Assembly (NCBI GenBank): GCA_963814275.1
Contig: CAWFCE010000002.1
Location: 1,131,263 to 1,195,262, forward strand
Source of the DNA: Candidatus Parcubacteria bacterium
GTDB lineage: Bacteria > Patescibacteriota > Patescibacteriia > Patescibacteriales > UBA12075
DNA length: 64,000 bases
Direction of reading: 5' to 3'
The notes under the pieces are model-generated. The model made no database searches, was not told the origin of the DNA, and saw nothing but the letters and a program-made list of their open reading frames with translations. The translations under genes were made by a program, and so were the position numbers. Each line of letters starts with the position of its first letter. Position 1 is the first letter of the stretch. Below are positions 616 through 45,388 of this stretch, in pieces.

Positions 616-779
616 AATAATATTTTATTTAATATTAGGTAAAATATTAATAATACTTTATTTAATTTGCTAATATTAAATAAAAATTCAACGGGTTGCC
701 TAAAAGCCATAACATAAATTAACAAAGATTTGGAATTAAACTTGTCGACACGGAAACGCCGTGATCGATGTCAATAACT

Positions 780-938
780 ATGGAAATGTTTTTTAAAATC
801 ATATTCGGTGTCGCAGTTTTCATGTTCTGTTTGTTAACCGTGGGGATCTTTTTGTTGATCATAAAAATATTATTTTTGTTTGCGCCGGAAATAACCCTAA
901 TGGGCATTAAAATGGTCCCGGCCGCTACCACATTCTGA
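780..938 (+). CDS. Hypothetical small membrane peptide (52 aa)
   Basis: ATG-to-TGA ORF below the 60-aa track cutoff: MEMFFKIIFGVAVFMFCLLTVGIFLLIIKILFLFAPEITLMGIKMVPAATTF. One hydrophobic helix, no SD, no homolog recognised. Confidence 0.25.
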   Translation: MEMFFKIIFGVAVFMFCLLTVGIFLLIIKILFLFAPEITLMGIKMVPAATTF

Positions 939-948
939 TTTGGTTAAT

Positions 949-976
949 ACTTCGCTTAATCTACATTATGCGAAGT
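949..976. other. dif: Candidate dif / Xer recombination site (11-6-11)
   Basis: ACTTCGCTTAA-TCTACA-TTATGCGAAGT. Arms are near-perfect inverted repeats and keep positions conserved in known dif sites. Lies 470 bp upstream of the xer gene. Confidence 0.45.
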
Positions 977-1151
977 ATTGTATAGCCTATTGCTATTACG
1001 TATAAAGTCATATGTTTACCGTCCCCTAACGGCCAATTATCCCATTTTCATCCCTACCGGCGAATAACCTGCTCCTCTTCCGCGGTCTAATTGGATTCCA
1101 CGGGATGCATCAACATTTTTTGCAATTTATTATTTGGTTTGCAAAATATTT

Positions 1152-1186
1152 AAAAAATCGATCCGATAATCCAGGATCGTTTTTTT
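1152..1186 (+). terminator. Rho-independent terminator-like hairpin with A6/T7 flanks
   Basis: CGATCC (1159-1164) / GGATCG (1174-1179) stem, 9-nt loop, T7 tail. No annotated gene upstream. Confidence 0.45.
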
Positions 1187-1449
1187 AATTTGGCCAATTC
1201 CCTATCAGGCTTATTGGCATCTTTATGGCCGGCATGATTGATCGGTTATTTTGCTTCTTCGTGGGATCAATCACTCAATATTTACATACGAACAAAAAGC
1301 GAACTTAAAGGGGGGATAACACGATTTTATCTGAATATGGCACAGGATTATTTAAATATCATAGCGGGTAGCCGCAGGCTTTATCTGCTTGCTTTTGCGC
1401 AATATTTGATACCGTTATAATACTTCGCATAATATGATATAATTGATTT

Positions 1450-2412
1450 ATGGCCAAACAAAAACCGATAATTGAATATCTGACCGATTATCTCGATTAT
1501 TGCGAGATAGAAAGGGGTTTATCGGGAAAAACCCAGGAAAGCTATTCCCGGTTTTTGAATAAATTTTTCAATTGGCTACTCGAAAACAACCTTGACAAAC
1601 TGATTCCGGCCAAGCTGACGGCGGAGCATGTCTGGAAATACAAGGTCTACTTGTCGCGGCATGTCGACCCGCGCAGCCGCGCTACGCTTAAAAAATCGAC
1701 ACAGAATTATTATTTGATCGCTTTGCGATCACTGCTGGAATTCTTTGTCGAGTGCAAAACAGATTCGCTCTCCCCCACTGCCGTCAAGCTGGCCAAAGAT
1801 AAGGGCCAAAAACAGGTTAAATTTCTGACTCTCAAACAGCTTGATGAGCTTTTATCTTCACCAAAAACCGATACTTTGATCGGCCTAAGGGACAAAGCCA
1901 TACTTGAAGTATTGTTTTCGACCGGCCTGCGTGTCGCTGAATTGGCCCGGCTGGACTCCGAACAGCTCAAGCTACCCAGCCAGCCCAAGGAGATAGAACT
2001 GTCCGTTACCGGCAAGGGCGGGCGGGTACGTACCGTATATTTTTCCGCCCGTTCCGTCAAATGGCTTAAGGCGTATATGGACAAACGCGCAGACATTGAT
2101 CAGGCCCTTTTCATCAACTATAAGCCGGGGATCGAAAAAAGCGGGCAAGACCGTCGCTTAACCACCAAATCGGTAGAAGATATCGTAAAAAAATATGTCA
2201 AAATAGCCGGTTTGCCGGTTGACGCCACACCGCATACCCTGCGCCACTCCTTCGCGACCGACCTGCTTTCCCAGGGTGCCGACATTCGCCTGGTACAGGA
2301 ATTTCTCGGCCACCAGAATATCGCCACCACCCAAATATACACGCACGTAACGAATAAACAATTAAAGGATGTCCACAAGAAGCTTCATAGCGGCAGAAAA
2401 CTAAAGGACTAA
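1450..2412 (+). CDS. xerC: Tyrosine recombinase, XerC/XerD family
   Basis: C-terminal catalytic motifs HTLRHSFATDLL and LGHQNIATTQIYTHV. N-terminal core-binding domain. 320 aa. Confidence 0.92.
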   Translation: MAKQKPIIEYLTDYLDYCEIERGLSGKTQESYSRFLNKFFNWLLENNLDKLIPAKLTAEHVWKYKVYLSRHVDPRSRATLKKSTQNYYLIALRSLLEFFVECKTDSLSPTAVKLAKDKGQKQVKFLTLKQLDELLSSPKTDTLIGLRDKAILEVLFSTGLRVAELARLDSEQLKLPSQPKEIELSVTGKGGRVRTVYFSARSVKWLKAYMDKRADIDQALFINYKPGIEKSGQDRRLTTKSVEDIVKKYVKIAGLPVDATPHTLRHSFATDLLSQGADIRLVQEFLGHQNIATTQIYTHVTNKQLKDVHKKLHSGRKLKD

Positions 2413-8903: not shown

Positions 8904-11537
8904 ATGGATATGTTCAATAAATTCACTAACAAAACCCAGGAAGCCATTATAAACGCGCAAATTATCGCCCAGGATTATGGGCAGCAACAGATCGAAGCTC
9001 TGCACATATTGGCGTCTTTGCTGCAGCAAAGCGAAAGCCTGGTCAAGCCGATTCTGGAAAAGCTGAAGATCTCACCCGACCATTTGGAAGAGCAAGTATT
9101 CGCCAAAATCGCCAAACTGCCGAAATCCGGGCCAACGGGGCCGATCGGGACAGTACAGGGCACCGCGGAAGTGGCAATGGTGTTGGAGCGGGCTAAAAAA
9201 GAAGCGGACAAAATGGGCGATGACTATATATCGACCGAGCACTTGATGCTGGCCTTGATCGGAATCCGTTCGTCGGCCCAGGAGGTACTTATGCATCTGG
9301 GCGTCGAATATGATACTGTATTGAAAATACTGGCTGAATTGCGCGGAGCGCAAACGGTCGATACGCCGGATCCGGAAAATAAATACAAAGTTTTGGAAAA
9401 GTACGCCGTTAACCTGACTGAACAGGCACGCAAAAAAATGCTCGATCCCGTAATCGGCCGGGACAATGAAATCCGGCGTATTATGCAGGTCCTTTCCCGC
9501 AGGACCAAAAATAACCCGGTTTTGATCGGGGAGGCGGGTACGGGGAAAACCGCGATCGTAGAAGGTTTAGCGCAAAGGATCGTCAGCGGCGATGTTCCCG
9601 AAACCCTCAAAAACAAGGAAATCATATCGCTTGATCTCGGTTCGATGGTTGCCGGAGCCAAATTTCGCGGAGAATTCGAGGACCGCTTGAAGGCCGTCCT
9701 AAAAGAAATCAAAGCCCATGAAGGCAAGCTGATACTTTTTATCGACGAATTGCATACGCTGGTGGGAGCCGGCGCGTCCGAGGGTTCTATGGACGCGTCC
9801 AATATGCTGAAGCCGGCGCTGTCCCGCGGTGAATTGCGGGCTATCGGCGCCACCACCACCAGGGAGTATCAAAAGTATATCGAGCGTGATGCCGCCCTTG
9901 AGCGACGCTTCCAGCCGATCTATGTGGCGGAGCCGTCCATCGAGGATACGATAGCGATCTTACGCGGTATTAAAGAAAAATACGAAGTGCACCATGGGGT
10001 AAGAATTACCGACGATGCCATCATATCGGCGGCCAAGCTGTCGGCTCGCTATATCACTGACCGCTTTCTTCCCGACAAAGCGGTTGACCTGATCGATGAA
10101 GCGACCTCGGCATTGCGCATGGAAATCGATTCCATGCCCGAGGACCTGGACAGCCTTAAACGTGAGATCAAACGGTTGGAGATCGAAAAGGCCGGCCTGA
10201 AACACGATAAAAAGAATACCGGAAAAACGAAATCCCTGAACAAAAAACTGGCCCAATTGAAAGAACAATCGAACCAGCTGGAATTGCACTGGAATAATGA
10301 AAAATCCATCATTTCCCGGATAAGCGCCACCAAGAAGGAAATCGACGGCCTTAAGGCAAAAGCCGAGATCATCGAACGGCGCGGCGACGACCTGACGCAA
10401 GTAGCGGAAATACGCTACGACAAGATCCCCTCGCTCGAAAAAGATGTCAAAAAACACGAAAAAGCACTGGCTGATATACAGAAAAACGGCCAACGGATAC
10501 TGAAAGAAGAGATCGACGAAGAAGATATCGCCAAAGTAGTCTCTCGCTGGACCGGCATTCCGGTGTCCAAAATGCTGGAGTCGGAGATCAAGAAACTGGC
10601 TAAGGCCGAAATCGAGCTTAAAAAACGGGTAAAGGGCCAGGACGAAGCCATAACTTCGGTGGCTAACGCCCTGCGTCGTTCTCGCGCCGGGATCGGCGAG
10701 GAACAAAAACCGATTGGCTCTTTCCTCTTTGTCGGTCCGACCGGCGTCGGTAAAACCGAACTTGCCAAAACATTGGCCGGATTCATGTTCAATGACGAAG
10801 CCGCCCTGGTCCGCCTTGATATGAGCGAATTTATGGAAAAACATTCGGTGGCCAAGATAATCGGCTCTCCTCCCGGTTATGTCGGTTATGACGAAGGCGG
10901 ACAATTGACGGAAAAGATCCGACGCCGCCCCTATAGCGTGGTATTATTCGACGAAATCGAAAAAGCCCATCCGGAAGTGTTTAATATACTTCTGCAAATA
11001 TTAGATGACGGGCGCCTGACCGACTCCAAGGGTCGGGTGGTTAATTTCAAGAATACGATAATAATTATGACATCGAATCTAGGCAATGAAGTCATCAAGC
11101 AATATTCGATCGGATTCTCCGACGGGAGCGACGAAGTCAAGCAGAAAGAATACCGGAACGAAGAAATGAAAGAAAAAATAGACAAAATCCTTAAGGAACA
11201 TTTCAAATTGGAATTTTTGAACCGTATCGATGAAATCGTCATTTTCAAGAGCCTGGATCCGAAGTCGCTCGAACAGATCGTGGATCTGGAACTTGCCAAA
11301 GTGGAGAAACGGCTGTTCGACCAGAATATCACTTTGAAAATCGCCAACCGGATCAAGCATCATTTGGCGAAAAAAGGCTATGACACCACCTTTGGCGCCC
11401 GGCCCATAAAACGTCTGATACAAAACATGATTCTGGATGAATTAGCGCTTGATATTATTGAGGGAAAAATAAAAGATGGCGATAAAGTCACTATTGATAT
11501 GGGACTAAAGAATAATCTCCTGGTTAACGTCAAATAA
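8904..11537 (+). CDS. clpB: ATP-dependent chaperone ClpB
   Basis: 877 aa with a Clp N domain, two AAA+ modules ([18 protein letters not shown]) and a long middle coiled coil. Confidence 0.97.
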
Positions 11538-12067: not shown

Positions 12068-12100
12068 ATAATACCTCGCGATATAATTGCGAGGTATTAT
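12068..12100 (-). terminator. Hairpin downstream of greA (terminator-like, weak U tract)
   Basis: 12-bp stem ATAATACCTCGC / GCGAGGTATTAT with a 9-nt loop. Confidence 0.4.
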
Positions 12101-12124: not shown

Positions 12125-12583
12125 TTATTTTACGGATATGATCGTATATTCGATATCTCCCTTGGGGGTTTCGACCGTTACCCGGTCCCCTGCTTTTTTC
12201 CCGGAAAACGAATGTCCAAGCGGAGATTCGTTAGAGATCTTACCGTTTGCCGGGTCAGCCTCATTGAAACTGACAATCGTAAACTCTCTTTTCTGGCCGT
12301 TTGACTCGACAACCAGACTCGAACCCATACCAACCACCTCTTTGCCTCCGCCATTGTCAACGACAGTAACATTCTTTAGCATTTGCGTAAGCTCCCCGAT
12401 CCGGCCTTCATTAAAGGCCTGCGCGTCCTTCGCTTCGCTATATTCGGCATTTTCGCTCAAATCCCCCATGTCTTTGGCGCGCTGAATCCTGTCCGCTATC
12501 TCTTTTCTTTTTACGTTAACAAGGTTTTCAAGCTCTTGTTTGAGCTTGTCATAACCTTCCTGAGAAATAATTTGATCGTTCAT
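12125..12583 (-). CDS. greA: Transcription elongation factor GreA
   Basis: 152 aa. GDLSENAEYSEAKDAQAF coiled-coil motif and a C-terminal FKBP-like domain. Confidence 0.95.
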   Translation of the reverse strand: MNDQIISQEGYDKLKQELENLVNVKRKEIADRIQRAKDMGDLSENAEYSEAKDAQAFNEGRIGELTQMLKNVTVVDNGGGKEVVGMGSSLVVESNGQKREFTIVSFNEADPANGKISNESPLGHSFSGKKAGDRVTVETPKGDIEYTIISVK

Positions 12584-40060: not shown

Positions 40061-42007
40061 TTATGTCAAATTTATCGCCTCTCCTTCGGGCAGCTCATTT
40101 TCATTCGCCGCTTTTTCTCCTGTTTGCCGAACCGGCGGCGTAGCGCGCACTTTCGGAGATGCCAAATTGGCGCTGTCTATTGGCTTATGCATCGCCGATT
40201 TTGGGCCTCTCGGCGGCCAGTTCGCCTTGTCAGCCGGACGCCCTTCCGCGGTATGATCTTTTTGCGCGTTATTGCCGTATTGACGCTGGTCTGGGCCTGC
40301 CATCCGGTTCGCTCCGTTCGAATCGTCCCGGAACGGTTTACCGCCTTGTTTCTTGAATGCGGCGGAAAAATCCTTCAAGCTGGTGAACTCTCCCAACTTC
40401 GCCTCCAGTTGCTCCAATTCTGACCTTTTTGCTTCTCTTCTACTGTCTAATTCGTTCTTTTTTTCCTGTTTGATCAGGTTCAGGCAATCTTTGCAGTAAA
40501 CCGGCCTTACGCCATCCGGCTTGAATGACGTTCTGGTATCTTTACCGCAGCGCGCGCAGACCGCTTCGTATTTATAGATTGAATCCGGGGCCTGGCGCGT
40601 CTCTTCGCGCGGCGCAGGTGCTTTGCTAACGGCAGGCATACTGGCCAAATCGTTTTTCGGCATGGTTTTGGGCTTGACAGGCGTAGTTCTGGCCGGTTTA
40701 CCGGGAGCAGGATCTTCGTTATTTTCATGCCAGCGGGATATCTTGTCCTCAACCGTCAGGCGGTCTTTAGCATAACGCTCGCGGCTGATCTGGATCACTT
40801 TTTCAGTATGGCCGGTCTTTTCGCTTTCCAATAATGGCGGCAGTCCGCGGGCGGAAAAAGGATTGGATGCGATGCCATCGATCATCAACTTAATGTAAAA
40901 TTCATATTTTGGCAGATTAACGATATCCTCGATCGTAAATACCGGAGTGAATTCCGGCTCCAGCTCTTCGGCATCGGCCGCGCCGACCCGAAAGACCACC
41001 ATGGTACCGACATTGCCGAACACCGCCCCCTTCACGGTATCGCCTAATTGTTCGATATACTGGTGTGCCATTATCAGGTTAAGATGGTACTTCCTTGCTT
41101 CAGACAGAATATTCGCAAAACTATCGGTGATAAAATTCTGTAATTCGTCGATATAAAGATAAAAATCCCGGCGTTCGCTTTCGGGCATATCGACCCGGCT
41201 CATTGCCGCTAATTGTATTTTGGTGATCATCATCGAACCCAGAAGGGCGGACGAGTCCTCGCCGATACGGCCTTTGCTCAGGTTCAGGATCAAAATTTTG
41301 CCGTTGTCCATAATATCGCGCATGTCGATTGTCGACTTGACCTGGCCGACTATATTACGGATAAGCGACGTGGAAAGAAACTGTCCGACCTTATTCTGAA
41401 TAGGAGAAACAGCTTCGGACGCGAACTTATCGGCATAGCCGGCGAATTCATTCACCCAGAAGGATTTTACCACCGGATCCTGGATCATCTCCACCACCCG
41501 TTTGCGGAATTTCTTATCCGCCAGCATTCTGGTCACGGCCAGAAGGGTCGAACCGGGGTAGTCAAGTATCGCCAGGATGGTATTGCGCAGGATGTACTCC
41601 AGACGCGGCCCCCACGAATCGGCCCAAAGCTTCTGGAACACGCCGATCAAGCCGGATGCCACCAAATGGCGGAATTGCGGATCAACATGCTCGACTACAT
41701 TGAATGCGATCGGATAATCGATGTCGGACGGGTTGAAATAAATTACATCGTTAATACGGTTACTGGGAATGTATTCAATGATTTTTTCCGCCAGATCGCC
41801 ATGAGGATCGACCACGGCCACGCCTTTGCCGGCGCGAATATCCTCAATGATCATATTCTCCTGAACCGTGGATTTCCCAACACCGGTTTTGCCGATCAGG
41901 TACATATGCCGCCGACGGTCGTCTAATTTTATGCCGAAACGCCGGCTTTTATTACGGAAAGTGGTTTCGGCAAACAAGGTTATTTTTTCATTGTCCATAT
42001 ATTTCAA
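40061..42007 (-). CDS. TraD/VirD4 (T4CP)-like FtsK/HerA-clade P-loop ATPase with disordered tail and CxxC-x17-CxxC zinc ribbon
   Basis: Walker A GKTGVGKST, VVDPHGDL, Walker B LYIDELQNF. No N-terminal TM helix. CARCGKDTRTSFKPDGVRPVYCKDC near the C-terminus. Confidence 0.8.
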   Translation of the reverse strand: MKYMDNEKITLFAETTFRNKSRRFGIKLDDRRRHMYLIGKTGVGKSTVQENMIIEDIRAGKGVAVVDPHGDLAEKIIEYIPSNRINDVIYFNPSDIDYPIAFNVVEHVDPQFRHLVASGLIGVFQKLWADSWGPRLEYILRNTILAILDYPGSTLLAVTRMLADKKFRKRVVEMIQDPVVKSFWVNEFAGYADKFASEAVSPIQNKVGQFLSTSLIRNIVGQVKSTIDMRDIMDNGKILILNLSKGRIGEDSSALLGSMMITKIQLAAMSRVDMPESERRDFYLYIDELQNFITDSFANILSEARKYHLNLIMAHQYIEQLGDTVKGAVFGNVGTMVVFRVGAADAEELEPEFTPVFTIEDIVNLPKYEFYIKLMIDGIASNPFSARGLPPLLESEKTGHTEKVIQISRERYAKDRLTVEDKISRWHENNEDPAPGKPARTTPVKPKTMPKNDLASMPAVSKAPAPREETRQAPDSIYKYEAVCARCGKDTRTSFKPDGVRPVYCKDCLNLIKQEKKNELDSRREAKRSELEQLEAKLGEFTSLKDFSAAFKKQGGKPFRDDSNGANRMAGPDQRQYGNNAQKDHTAEGRPADKANWPPRGPKSAMHKPIDSANLASPKVRATPPVRQTGEKAANENELPEGEAINLT

Positions 42008-45137: not shown

Positions 45138-45388
45138 ATTTATCTGGTGCGAATCAAGTCATGGGATGCTTGGATCGCTAAAAATAAAAAAATAAATTGA
45201 TTGAAAATAATTTTTATTAAGACTTATCAACAAATGATTTGCTTTATCTGTCGAATATAATCATAATTAAATATCAATATCGTTGATAATATAGCATAAA
45301 TATTTACTTTAGTCAAGATTATAAATTAATCTAATAACGATAGTTAGGCGAAGTTATGAAATATATTTAAAATAGACTAAAGTTAAAT

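What the first reader, a model, noticed from the sequence alone, without database searches (positions are those of the whole stretch)
944..980. dif-like 11-6-11 palindrome beside the Xer recombinase gene, with a third arm copy on the xer promoter
Seen: ACTTCGCTTAA-TCTACA-TTATGCGAAGT sits at 949-976. Its arms are 10/11 inverted, and an outer perfect palindrome AATACTTCGC (946-955) / GCGAAGTATT (970-979) encloses them. This is the 28-bp architecture of Xer sites. It keeps positions conserved in known dif sites: B. subtilis ACTTCCTAGAA-TATATA-TTATGTAAACT, and on the other strand CGCATAA-TGTAGA-TTA versus E. coli CGCATAA-TGTATA-TTA. The 15-mer AATACTTCGCATAAT recurs at 1419-1433. That copy abuts a TATAAT (1438-1443) ending 6 nt before the xer ATG at 1450, which suggests autoregulation and a leaderless xer mRNA. 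Inference: this is a chromosome-dimer resolution site kept next to a single recombinase, as in XerS/difSL. That arrangement has not been established for this lineage.
Basis: partly seen in the sequence, partly recalled or inferred. Interest (0 to 1): 0.55.

Follow-up and report, generated by a model that had tools for sequence, protein, structure and literature searches.

The report
Chromosome dimer-resolution site beside its recombinase
The 28-base palindrome is very probably the site where this ultra-small (Patescibacteria/CPR) bacterium untangles joined daughter chromosomes, kept next to its recombinase gene at the end point of replication as in most of its relatives; this is a known kind of system, not found described for this lineage in the papers searched.

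Summary
ACTTCGCTTAA-TCTACA-TTATGCGAAGT (949-976) occurs once in the 64 kb. It is 20/28 identical to E. coli dif.

Related genomes decide the question:
- A homologous 11-6-11 site lies upstream of the xer orthologue in 75 of 80 species-level Patescibacteria genomes (median 114 bp).
- No second good copy occurs in 1.21 Mb of those loci.
- GC skew falls across the site in 38 of 39 loci, and from positive to negative in 30. Genes converge on it, which marks a replication terminus.
- The identical 28-mer sits at a sharp skew switch in two metagenome contigs that have no xer nearby. It is therefore not merely a xer operator.
- Outer arm bases co-vary between the two arms, which suggests that one protein reads both.

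The adjacent Xer has all its catalytic residues. It falls below the NCBIfam cut-offs for XerC, XerD, XerA and XerS.

The third arm copy (1422-1432) is real. It recurs next to the xer start in other species whose dif has been moved away by inserted DNA. An extended -10 box ends exactly 6 nt before the ATG in 17 relatives, which supports a leaderless mRNA.

Verdict: a genuine dif/Xer module, and a new member of a known kind. The single-recombinase status and the autoregulation are inferred, not shown.

The parts
949..976 (.). dif-type Xer recombination site with 11-6-11 architecture. Read on the - strand it is ACTTCGCATAA-TGTAGA-TTAAGCGAAGT.
   Evidence: Unique in the window. 20/28 identical to E. 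coli dif. Homologous site upstream of xer in 75 of 80 related genomes. Lies at the skew switch and gene convergence point in relatives.
966..976 (-). Conserved arm (ACTTCGCATAA on the - strand), on the xer side of the site.
   Evidence: Present as ACTTCGCATAA in 26 of 27 loci of the Falkowbacteria-like group.
960..965 (.). 6-bp central region (TCTACA; TGTAGA on the - strand), the presumed strand-exchange zone.
   Evidence: TGTAGA or TGTATA in most relatives. Its role in strand exchange is inferred from known dif sites.
949..959 (+). Second arm (ACTTCGCTTAA), the variable arm in relatives. It differs from the conserved arm at arm position 8 (T instead of A).
   Evidence: The position-8 asymmetry (CATAA against CTTAA) holds in all 42 distinct group-2 sites and in 26 of 27 group-1 sites.
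1422..1432 (+). Third copy of the conserved arm. It sits 18-28 nt before the xer ATG, just upstream of the extended -10 box. With its flanks (1416-1433) it is a 17/18 inverted copy of 965-982.
   Evidence: An equivalent arm copy lies next to the xer start in L008, L023, L041, L067 and in L206, L209, L210, L212, L221, L227. Arm-like copies number 28 in dif-xer gaps against 8 in equal-length controls.
1435..1443 (+). Extended -10 promoter element TGATATAAT, ending 6 nt before the xer ATG. This predicts a leaderless mRNA.
   Evidence: Same motif at the same 6-nt distance in 17 of 100 related loci; a Shine-Dalgarno-like motif in only 2 of 100.
1406..1433 (+). Alternative promoter-like match TTGATA-16-CATAAT, whose -10 hexamer is the inner end of the third arm copy.
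   Evidence: 10 of 12 consensus positions. A consensus match only.
1450..2412 (+). xer, a 320-aa Xer-type tyrosine recombinase.
   Evidence: Pfam Phage_integrase plus SAM-like N-terminal domain. Best NCBIfam matches are XerD (226 bits), XerC (221), XerA (188) and XerS (125), all below their cut-offs. Closest solved structure is E. coli XerD, 1a0p. Catalytic R161, K189, H262, R265, H288 and Y297 are invariant in 18 homologues.
977..1421 (.). Non-conserved spacer between dif and the xer promoter. It includes two hairpins, at 1115-1149 and 1150-1188.
   Evidence: No credible ORF, no Rfam match, and no homologue in related loci apart from the arm copy. The dif-xer distance ranges from 38 to 1074 bp among relatives.
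768..938 (+). Small hydrophobic ORF (56 aa) that ends 11 nt before dif. It is the last gene of the left-hand block of co-oriented genes.
   Evidence: Conserved by tblastn at the same place in 17 related loci.

Best explanation
Window 949-976 is the chromosomal dif site of this Patescibacteria (Falkowbacteria-like Parcubacteria) genome.

Proposed mechanism. After homologous recombination has fused the two daughter chromosomes into a dimer, the tyrosine recombinase encoded 474 bp downstream (xer, 1450-2412) binds the two 11-bp arms. Two dif copies are brought together, and strands are exchanged across the 6-bp centre. The dimer is thereby split into monomers at the replication terminus.

Shown here:
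- dif-type architecture and sequence;
- a single copy in the DNA available;
- conservation of the site next to xer across the phylum;
- position at the local GC-skew switch and gene convergence point;
- an intact catalytic set in Xer.

Inferred:
- This Xer acts alone on both arms, because the arms co-vary as mirror images. I put this at about 0.6.
- Recombination is coupled to cell division, for example through FtsK.
- Xer occupancy of dif damps xer transcription. In most relatives dif abuts the xer start. In this genome the job would fall to the extra arm copy at 1422-1432, just upstream of a leaderless extended -10 promoter.
For: Sequence and copy number.
- 11-6-11 palindrome, unique in 64 kb.
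- 20/28 identical to E. coli dif.
- The conserved arm plus TGTA is identical to the matching part of canonical proteobacterial dif sites in IMG/VR contigs, for example ACTTCGCATAATGTATATTATGTTAAAT.

Conservation.
- 75 of 80 species-level genomes have the site upstream of xer. The median distance is 114 bp, and 53 lie within 150 bp.
- No other copy with at least 7 of 11 mirrored arm positions occurs in 1.21 Mb.

Terminus.
- GC skew is higher left than right in 38 of 39 loci and goes from + to - in 30.
- The cumulative skew maximum falls within 2 kb of the site in 24 of 39 loci.
- Genes left of the site are 70-100% on the + strand in 38 of 39 loci. Genes right of xer are mostly on the - strand.
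- In the window, 87% of coding bases right of xer are on the - strand and skew is negative throughout.
- All 11 evaluable metagenome contigs carrying the exact 28-mer also show the fall in skew.

Independence from xer.
- Contigs L208 and L218 have the identical 28-mer at the sharpest skew switches (+0.17 to -0.17 and +0.25 to -0.24) with no xer within 2.8 kb and 1.7 kb.

Linkage survives rearrangement.
- gltX lies to the right of xer on the - strand in one group and to the left on the + strand in the other. dif stays next to the 5' end of xer in both.

One reader for both arms.
- Among 42 distinct sites the outer five arm positions mirror each other at 3.83 of 5. When arms are re-paired between genomes the value is 3.07, and none of 5000 shuffles reached the observed value.
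- Mirrored variants include ATTGC/GCAAT, TAGTCG/CGACTA and ATGTCGC/GCGACAT.

Enzyme.
- Xer-type domains and catalytic residues are present.
Against: - The whole 1.27-Mb genome could not be read. Uniqueness and the global skew terminus in this genome are therefore not shown. Only 9 kb to the left of the site was available, and its skew is positive for about 5 kb only.
- The skew and gene-strand signals are partly the same signal, because coding strands carry their own skew.
- Part of the gene neighbourhood is shared among relatives, so the loci are not fully independent observations.
- A second Xer encoded elsewhere cannot be excluded. In XerCD genomes xerC tends to lie near dif and xerD near the origin (PMC3025954). 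In many Falkowbacteria-like relatives one arm is invariant and the other variable, which is also the XerD/XerC pattern.
- No binding or recombination assay exists.
Confidence: 0.8

Rival explanations
1. It is a dif site, but of the ordinary two-recombinase kind. The adjacent gene would be the XerC-like partner, and a second, XerD-like recombinase encoded elsewhere would bind the other arm.
For: In XerCD genomes xerC lies mostly near dif and xerD near the origin (PMC3025954). In many Falkowbacteria-like relatives one arm is invariant and the other varies, for example TTAATACACCT. The protein scores almost equally against the XerC and XerD models. One relative, L052, has a second Xer-like gene right after xer.
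Against: In this genome the arms are 10/11 mirror images. Across 42 distinct sites the outer arm bases co-vary as mirror images, which two proteins with different specificities would not produce. No second Xer-like gene is present in the 64-kb window. Only one was found in 1.2 Mb of related loci, though that DNA is all near the terminus.
Confidence: 0.2
2. The palindrome is only an operator for xer autoregulation or for another regulator. It is not a recombination site.
For: In most relatives it lies 5-100 nt before the xer start, and an extra arm copy sits on the xer promoter here.
Against: The identical 28-mer occurs without any xer nearby in L208 and L218, still at a skew switch between convergent genes. 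It has the length, spacer and sequence of dif. In this genome the full site is about 470 bp from the promoter.
Confidence: 0.04
3. The full site and the promoter-proximal arm are the ends of a mobile or invertible segment. The 17/18 inverted repeats 965-982 and 1416-1433 would flank 433 bp that Xer flips, or that an element exploiting Xer inserted.
For: The inverted repeat lies beside a recombinase gene. The site at 1425-1446 is the next-best match to the dif core in the window, at 3 mismatches. Spacers differ in length and content between species, and some hold small genes. Arm copies recur where the gap is long.
Against: The same orientation appears in the two independent assemblies of this genome, which are 100% identical over 862 columns. 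The spacer has no ORF, no known RNA and no outward promoter of note. The second arm of the promoter-proximal copy is not conserved between species. No Patescibacteria-type site was found in IMG/VR viral contigs. This could explain the origin of the third arm copy, but not the conserved terminus site itself.
Confidence: 0.04
4. It is a REP-like or terminator hairpin, one member of a repeated family that includes 12070-12098.
For: Perfect outer palindrome. The hairpin at 12070-12098 shares 9/10 of the outer arm.
Against: There is a single copy. AATACYTCGC with one mismatch occurs 12 times against 10.1 expected by chance. The 12070 hairpin has a 9-nt loop, lacks the TAA-N6-TTA core, and lies after greA between convergent genes.
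Confidence: 0.01

Closest known systems
XerS/difSL of streptococci and lactococci
   Same: The recombinase gene lies immediately next to its site as one module at the replication terminus (PMC5357621; PMC2731167). The two arms are imperfect mirror images with a fixed asymmetry.
   Different: difSL is 31 bp with an 11-bp centre, whereas this site is 28 bp with a 6-bp centre. The protein is not XerS: it scores 125 bits against NF003462, whose cut-off is 267.
XerH/difH of Helicobacter and Campylobacter
   Same: A single recombinase that is genetically linked to its site in most species (PMC2731167).
   Different: The protein is only distantly related: 48.6 bits to the XerH structure 5jjv against 127.8 bits to XerD. 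The site follows canonical dif rather than difH/difSL.
XerCD/dif of E. coli and B. subtilis
   Same: 28-bp 11-6-11 site. CGCATAA-TGTA..-TTA is shared, with 20/28 identity to E. coli dif. It lies at the skew shift point. The protein is closest to XerD and XerC.
   Different: There, two paralogous recombinases bind arms that differ, and neither gene abuts dif. Here one xer abuts dif and the arms mirror each other. The protein is below both equivalog cut-offs (226 against 329.6 for XerD; 221 against 335 for XerC).
XerA/dif of archaea
   Same: From my own knowledge of the literature: one canonical-type Xer acts alone on a 28-bp dif with a 6-bp centre. The protein similarity is substantial (188 bits to NF040815; 111 bits to structure 4a8e).
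   Different: Below the XerA cut-off of 220 bits, and the lineage is bacterial. To my knowledge archaeal xerA is not generally adjacent to dif and works without FtsK. Neither point was tested here.
XerL/dif of Legionellales
   Same: A single-recombinase dimer-resolution system recognised by the same criteria: about 30 bp, low G+C, palindromic, near the terminus, noncoding (PMC9765430).
   Different: By that paper's account, XerL and its site are distinct from canonical Xer and dif. The site here is plainly of the canonical dif type. XerL itself was not compared with this protein.

Membership tests
dif (Xer chromosome dimer-resolution site) | About 28-31 bp: two ~11-bp inverted arms around a 6-8 bp centre, with sequence similarity to known dif sites | tested here: met
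   11-6-11 with arms matching 10/11. 20/28 identical to E. coli dif and 19/28 to B. subtilis dif. Shares the 15-mer ACTTCGCATAATGTA with canonical proteobacterial dif sites.
dif (Xer chromosome dimer-resolution site) | Single occurrence per chromosome | tested here: inconclusive
   One copy in the 64-kb window plus 8 kb upstream. No second good copy in 81 loci totalling 1.21 Mb. The full 1.27-Mb contig could not be read.
dif (Xer chromosome dimer-resolution site) | [quoted passage not shown] | tested here: met
   Locally: skew higher left than right in 38 of 39 loci, + to - in 30 of 39, and genes converge. All 11 metagenome contigs agree. In this genome the skew is negative over the 64 kb to the right and positive in part of the 9 kb to the left. 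The position relative to the origin was not testable.
dif (Xer chromosome dimer-resolution site) | Noncoding location and G+C below the genome mean | tested here: met
   The site starts 11 nt after the stop of ORF 768-938 and lies 474 nt before xer. It has 10 G+C in 28 bases (36%) against 40-50% in 2-kb windows.
dif (Xer chromosome dimer-resolution site) | Bound and recombined by the cognate Xer recombinase(s) | not testable with these tools
   Needs EMSA, suicide-substrate cleavage or a plasmid-resolution assay.
Single-recombinase xer-dif module (as in XerS/difSL and XerH/difH) | The recombinase gene is genetically linked to the site | tested here: met
   75 of 80 genomes, median distance 114 bp. 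The linkage is kept although the flanking genes are rearranged.
Single-recombinase xer-dif module (as in XerS/difSL and XerH/difH) | Only one Xer recombinase in the genome acts on the site | tested here: inconclusive
   Indirect support from mirrored co-variation of the arms. No second Xer in the window. The whole genome was not available.
XerS (NCBIfam NF003462) and difSL | XerS-type protein; 31-bp site with an 11-bp centre | tested here: not met
   125.2 bits against a cut-off of 267. The centre is 6 bp.
XerD (TIGR02225) / XerC (TIGR02224) equivalogs | Score at or above the curated equivalog cut-off | tested here: not met
   226 against 329.6 for XerD, and 220.8 against 335.15 for XerC. It is a Xer-type recombinase that cannot be assigned to either.
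XerA (NF040815) | Score at or above the cut-off | tested here: not met
   187.9 bits against a cut-off of 220.
Tyrosine recombinase, active enzyme | Catalytic R-K-H-R-H-Y residues | tested here: met
   R161, K189, H262, R265, H288 and Y297 align with XerD R148, K172, H244, R247, H270 and Y279 (the XerD numbering is from my own knowledge; alignment). All six are invariant in 18 homologues.
REP-like dispersed hairpin family | Many copies in intergenic regions | tested here: not met
   A single copy. The arm motif occurs at the chance level.
Invertible DNA switch (fim-type) | Inverted repeats flank a segment that is found in both orientations | tested here: inconclusive
   The inverted repeats exist, 17/18 with 433 bp between them. 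Both assemblies of this genome show the same orientation. No read-level data were available.

The most novel reading that the evidence does not exclude
Many or most Patescibacteria resolve chromosome dimers with a self-contained one-gene cassette. In this reading a single canonical-type Xer has its 28-bp dif overlapping or abutting its own, often leaderless, promoter, so the recombinase sets its own level by sitting on its recombination site. When foreign DNA is inserted between dif and xer, as in this genome, a spare copy of the conserved arm at the promoter keeps that control. The same motif would give a one-line marker of the replication terminus for curating genomes of this uncultivated radiation.
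Probability: 0.35. Interest if true: 0.6.

Novelty: new member of a known kind. Interest (0 to 1): 0.45.

Why it matters
Patescibacteria make up a large share of bacterial diversity. They have tiny genomes and are almost entirely uncultivated. None of eight full-text searches returned a paper that deals with their dif/Xer system. That library does not cover most subscription journals.

A conserved xer-dif module would be useful in three ways:
1. It marks the replication terminus in metagenome-assembled genomes, which helps when checking assemblies and replication-rate estimates.
2. It offers a compact one-protein, 28-bp recombination system that could be tested in E. coli, and perhaps used as a genetic tool in the few Patescibacteria that can be cultivated.
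3. It adds a case in which a canonical-type Xer and a canonical dif are arranged like the XerS and XerH modules. That bears on how single-recombinase systems arise.

It does not change how Xer recombination is understood.

Tried and rejected
- Reading the full 1.27-Mb contig. The look-up of encoding contigs with xer and with gltX returned only a 14-kb Logan contig of the same genome, and the cluster look-up added nothing. Whole-genome copy number, global skew and a recombinase census could therefore not be done.
- Function of the spacer 977-1421. It has no Rfam match and no credible ORF. Its fold z-score of -2.7 comes from two terminator-like hairpins. It has no homologue in relatives.
- Phages or integrative elements exploiting the site. 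By my own rough estimate that is near the chance number for a 15-mer in a collection of this size. Most of the 28-mers at the hits read as canonical proteobacterial dif sites or junctions of integrated elements. Two Patescibacteria-type patterns gave no hits.
- REP family, including 12070-12098. Rejected.
- Mobile-element att site. Rejected because the flanking genes are housekeeping genes: serS, aspS, an ftsQ-like gene, gltX, an M23 peptidase, clpB, greA and the mur/ftsW cluster. The module is also conserved across classes.
- Literature. Eight full-text searches found no paper that treats dif or Xer in this lineage.
- Not attempted. Co-variation between protein and DNA was left out because it would be confounded by phylogeny.

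Full report
**1. The observation**

The sequence is as described. ACTTCGCTTAA (949-959), TCTACA (960-965) and TTATGCGAAGT (966-976) form an 11-6-11 site whose arms match 10/11 as inverted repeats. The palindrome extends to 946-960 against 965-979 (15 nt, 93% complementary).

The 28-mer has no other match in the 64 kb with up to three mismatches, and none in 100 shuffles. A core pattern of 16 specified bases finds it at 0-1 mismatch. The next-best hits have 3 mismatches: the promoter-proximal copy at 1425-1446 and one chance-level hit at 45330.

The 15-mer AATACTTCGCATAAT recurs at 1419-1433. With its flanks it is a 17/18 inverted copy of 965-982.

TATAAT (1438-1443) ends 6 nt before the ATG at 1450. 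It is part of a perfect extended -10, TGATATAAT (1435-1443).

**2. The gene and the organism**

ORF 1450-2412 encodes a 320-aa Xer-type tyrosine recombinase with Phage_integrase and SAM-like N-terminal domains. Its best NCBIfam matches are XerD (226 bits), XerC (221), XerA (188) and XerS (125), each below its curated cut-off. The closest solved structure is E. coli XerD. The six catalytic residues are invariant among 18 homologues.

Homologues at 68-78% identity come from Parcubacteria, Falkowbacteria, Magasanikbacteria and 'Patescibacteria group' genomes. The exact protein is on record on a 1,274,625-bp contig. That contig could not be fetched. A 14-kb assembly of the same genome (L001, 100% identical over the region) adds 8 kb to the left of the window.

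**3. Conservation beside xer**

A scan of one genome per GTDB species with a profile of this Xer returned 80 loci at 51-78% identity. These are labelled Falkowbacteria, Nealsonbacteria, Wildermuthbacteria, Staskawiczbacteria, Gribaldobacteria, Paceibacterota and others. Some carry plainly wrong bin labels.

A homologous 11-6-11 site lies upstream of xer in 75 of them. The median distance from the start of the site to xer is 114 bp, 53 are within 150 bp, and 10 are beyond 450 bp. Three of the remaining loci begin too close to xer to tell. L052 and L059 show only degenerate versions.

No other copy with at least 7 of 11 mirrored arm positions exists anywhere in the 81 loci, which total 1.21 Mb.

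The consensus is A(C/T)(T/G)TCGCATAA-TGTAG(A/G)-TTAAGCGA(A/C)(G)T.

There are two orientation classes:
- In the Falkowbacteria-like group, which includes this window, the conserved arm faces xer.
- In the other groups the conserved arm is on the far side.

One asymmetry is fixed. Arm position 8 is A in one arm and T in the other (CATAA against CTTAA). This holds in all 42 distinct group-2 sites and in 26 of 27 group-1 sites.

The exact 28-mer of the window occurs in 25 metagenome contigs. In 22 of them a xer homologue follows on the same strand, 32-568 bp away.

**4. Terminus**

In the 39 loci with at least 4 kb on both sides:
- GC skew is higher on the left than on the right of the site in 38.
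- It goes from positive to negative in 30, and the reverse in 1. The means are +0.109 and -0.083.
- The maximum of cumulative skew lies within 1 kb of the site in 18 and within 2 kb in 24.
- Long ORFs left of the site are 70-100% on the + strand in 38 of 39 loci. ORFs right of xer are mostly on the - strand.

This is the pattern of two converging replichores, not of an origin.

In the window itself:
- Skew is negative in 31 of 32 two-kb bins to the right.
- 87% of coding bases right of xer are on the - strand.
- To the left, L001 shows positive skew over about 5 kb and + strand genes up to the site.

All 11 evaluable metagenome contigs with the exact 28-mer also show the fall in skew.

Two caveats apply. 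Coding-strand composition contributes to skew. The loci also share part of their gene neighbourhood, so they are not fully independent.

**5. More than an operator**

Two contigs, L208 and L218, carry the identical 28-mer between convergent genes with no xer within 2.8 kb and 1.7 kb. They have the sharpest skew switches of the set (+0.17 to -0.17 and +0.25 to -0.24). The site therefore follows the terminus, not only the xer promoter.

Conversely, the linkage to xer survives rearrangement. gltX is to the right of xer on the - strand in one group and to the left on the + strand in the other.

**6. One recombinase or two?**

The outer arm bases differ between lineages but stay mirror images. Examples are ACTTCG/CGAAGT, AGTTCG/CGAACT, ATGTCGC/GCGACAT, TAGTCG/CGACTA, ATTGC/GCAAT and ATTAC/GTAAT.

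Over 42 distinct sites, 3.83 of the outer 5 positions mirror each other. When arms are re-paired between genomes the value is 3.07, and none of 5000 shuffles reached 3.83. This is what one protein reading both arms predicts.

Three points count against certainty:
- In many Falkowbacteria-like relatives one arm is invariant and the other diverges.
- In XerCD genomes xerC tends to lie near dif (PMC3025954).
- The genome could not be searched for a second Xer.

I rate the single-recombinase reading at about 0.6.

**7. The third arm copy and the promoter**

An exact or near-exact copy of the arm lies 10-56 nt before the xer ATG in other species whose dif is far from xer. These are L008, L023, L041 and L067 and L206, L209, L210, L212, L221 and L227. 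L210 and L008 show the same order as the window: arm, then extended -10, then ATG.

Arm-like 9-mers number 28 in the dif-xer gaps against 8 in equal-length upstream controls. The spacers themselves are not homologous, differ in length, and in several species hold a small - strand gene.

Two readings fit:
- The copy is a scar of DNA insertion at dif.
- The copy is a retained Xer-binding half-site that keeps xer under Xer control once dif has been moved away.

The second arm of this pseudo-site is not conserved, so it is not a second dif.

The extended -10 TGnTAnnAT ends exactly 6 nt before the ATG in 17 of 100 loci, while Shine-Dalgarno-like motifs occur in 2 of 100. This supports a leaderless xer mRNA in this clade.

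In the other groups dif ends only 5-50 nt before the start codon in many loci. There the xer promoter must overlap dif or read through it. Autoregulation is therefore plausible but untested.

**8. Rivals rejected**

- REP family. The site is single-copy. The arm motif occurs at the chance level (12 found against 10.1 expected). The hairpin at 12070-12098 has a 9-nt loop, lacks the dif core, and follows greA.
- Mobile element. The surrounding genes are housekeeping genes.
- Invertible switch. Both assemblies show the same orientation, and nothing in the spacer looks switchable.
- Elements exploiting the site. None were found in IMG/VR. The hits to the shared 15-mer are mostly canonical proteobacterial dif sites and junctions of integrated elements.

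**9. Comparison and novelty**

The arrangement matches the XerS/difSL and XerH/difH modules (PMC5357621; PMC2731167). The site and the protein are of the canonical dif/XerCD type, and also resemble archaeal XerA. The protein meets none of the curated family cut-offs.

The criteria used to recognise the Legionella dif are size, low G+C, palindromy, terminus position and noncoding location (PMC9765430). All are met here, the terminus criterion only locally (section 4).

Eight literature searches found nothing on dif or Xer in Patescibacteria. The 2011 dif census, which reports sites in 16 phyla, does not list this lineage (PMC3025954).

**Verdict**

This is a genuine dif/Xer module and a new member of a known kind. 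It is documented here across a large, previously unexamined radiation. It is of moderate interest.

Noticed in passing
window 12070-12098: Perfect 10-bp stem with a 9-nt loop, AATACCTCGC-gatataatt-GCGAGGTATT, between the convergent genes clpB (8904-11537, +) and greA (12125-12583, -). The stem is 9/10 like the outer dif arm but lacks the dif core. It is probably a terminator.
   Followed up: partly
window 768-938: Small hydrophobic ORF of 56 aa that ends 11 nt before dif. tblastn finds it at the same place in 17 related loci, so it is likely a real small membrane protein and the last gene before the terminus.
   Followed up: partly
L208 6218-6245; L218 13166-13193: Metagenome contigs with the identical 28-mer at very sharp skew switches between convergent genes, but with no xer within 2.8 kb and 1.7 kb. 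In L208 the site follows what I read, from their sequences only, as a nucleotidyltransferase/HEPN-like gene pair. The xer-dif linkage is therefore not universal.
   Followed up: partly
L052 10001-12414: This relative has a second Xer-like gene (32% identity to the query) immediately after xer, and only a degenerate dif upstream. It may be a lineage with two recombinases.
   Followed up: no
L048, L051, L055, L061, L079 (between dif and xer): This set of loci (L061 is labelled Nealsonbacteria) carries extra copies of CGCTTTACC or close variants between dif and the xer start. The motif is the reverse complement of the central GG plus the inner right arm. Some of these loci also carry a further left-arm-like tgtcgcaagaat. 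These may be accessory Xer-binding sites.
   Followed up: partly
L008, L011, L013, L014, L020, L023, L028, L067 (dif-xer gaps): Long gaps between dif and xer hold small ORFs on the - strand (84-246 aa). By eye, those of L013 and L020 look related. The terminus-proximal gap seems to accept cargo DNA.
   Followed up: no
L103, L110, L111, L113, L115, L125, L129, L147 (IMG/VR): Viral contigs with two directly repeated ACTTCGCATAATGTA sites about 6.2-6.9 kb apart. Canonical proteobacterial dif sites and hybrid junctions dominate the 28-mers at the hits of this scan. I take these contigs for integrated filamentous-phage-like elements that use host XerCD, unrelated to Patescibacteria.
   Followed up: partly
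window 2496-64000: Very strong gene-strand bias. About 87% of coding bases over 60 kb are on the - strand, pointing towards the dif site.
   Followed up: yes
window 40061-42007: TrwB/VirD4-type coupling protein domain with a treble-clef zinc finger, lying among housekeeping genes.
   Followed up: no
window 1115-1188: Two adjacent hairpins in the dif-xer spacer. The second, TTAAAAAATCGATCC / GGATCGTTTTTTTAA, looks like a bidirectional intrinsic terminator that would insulate xer from upstream transcription.
   Followed up: partly
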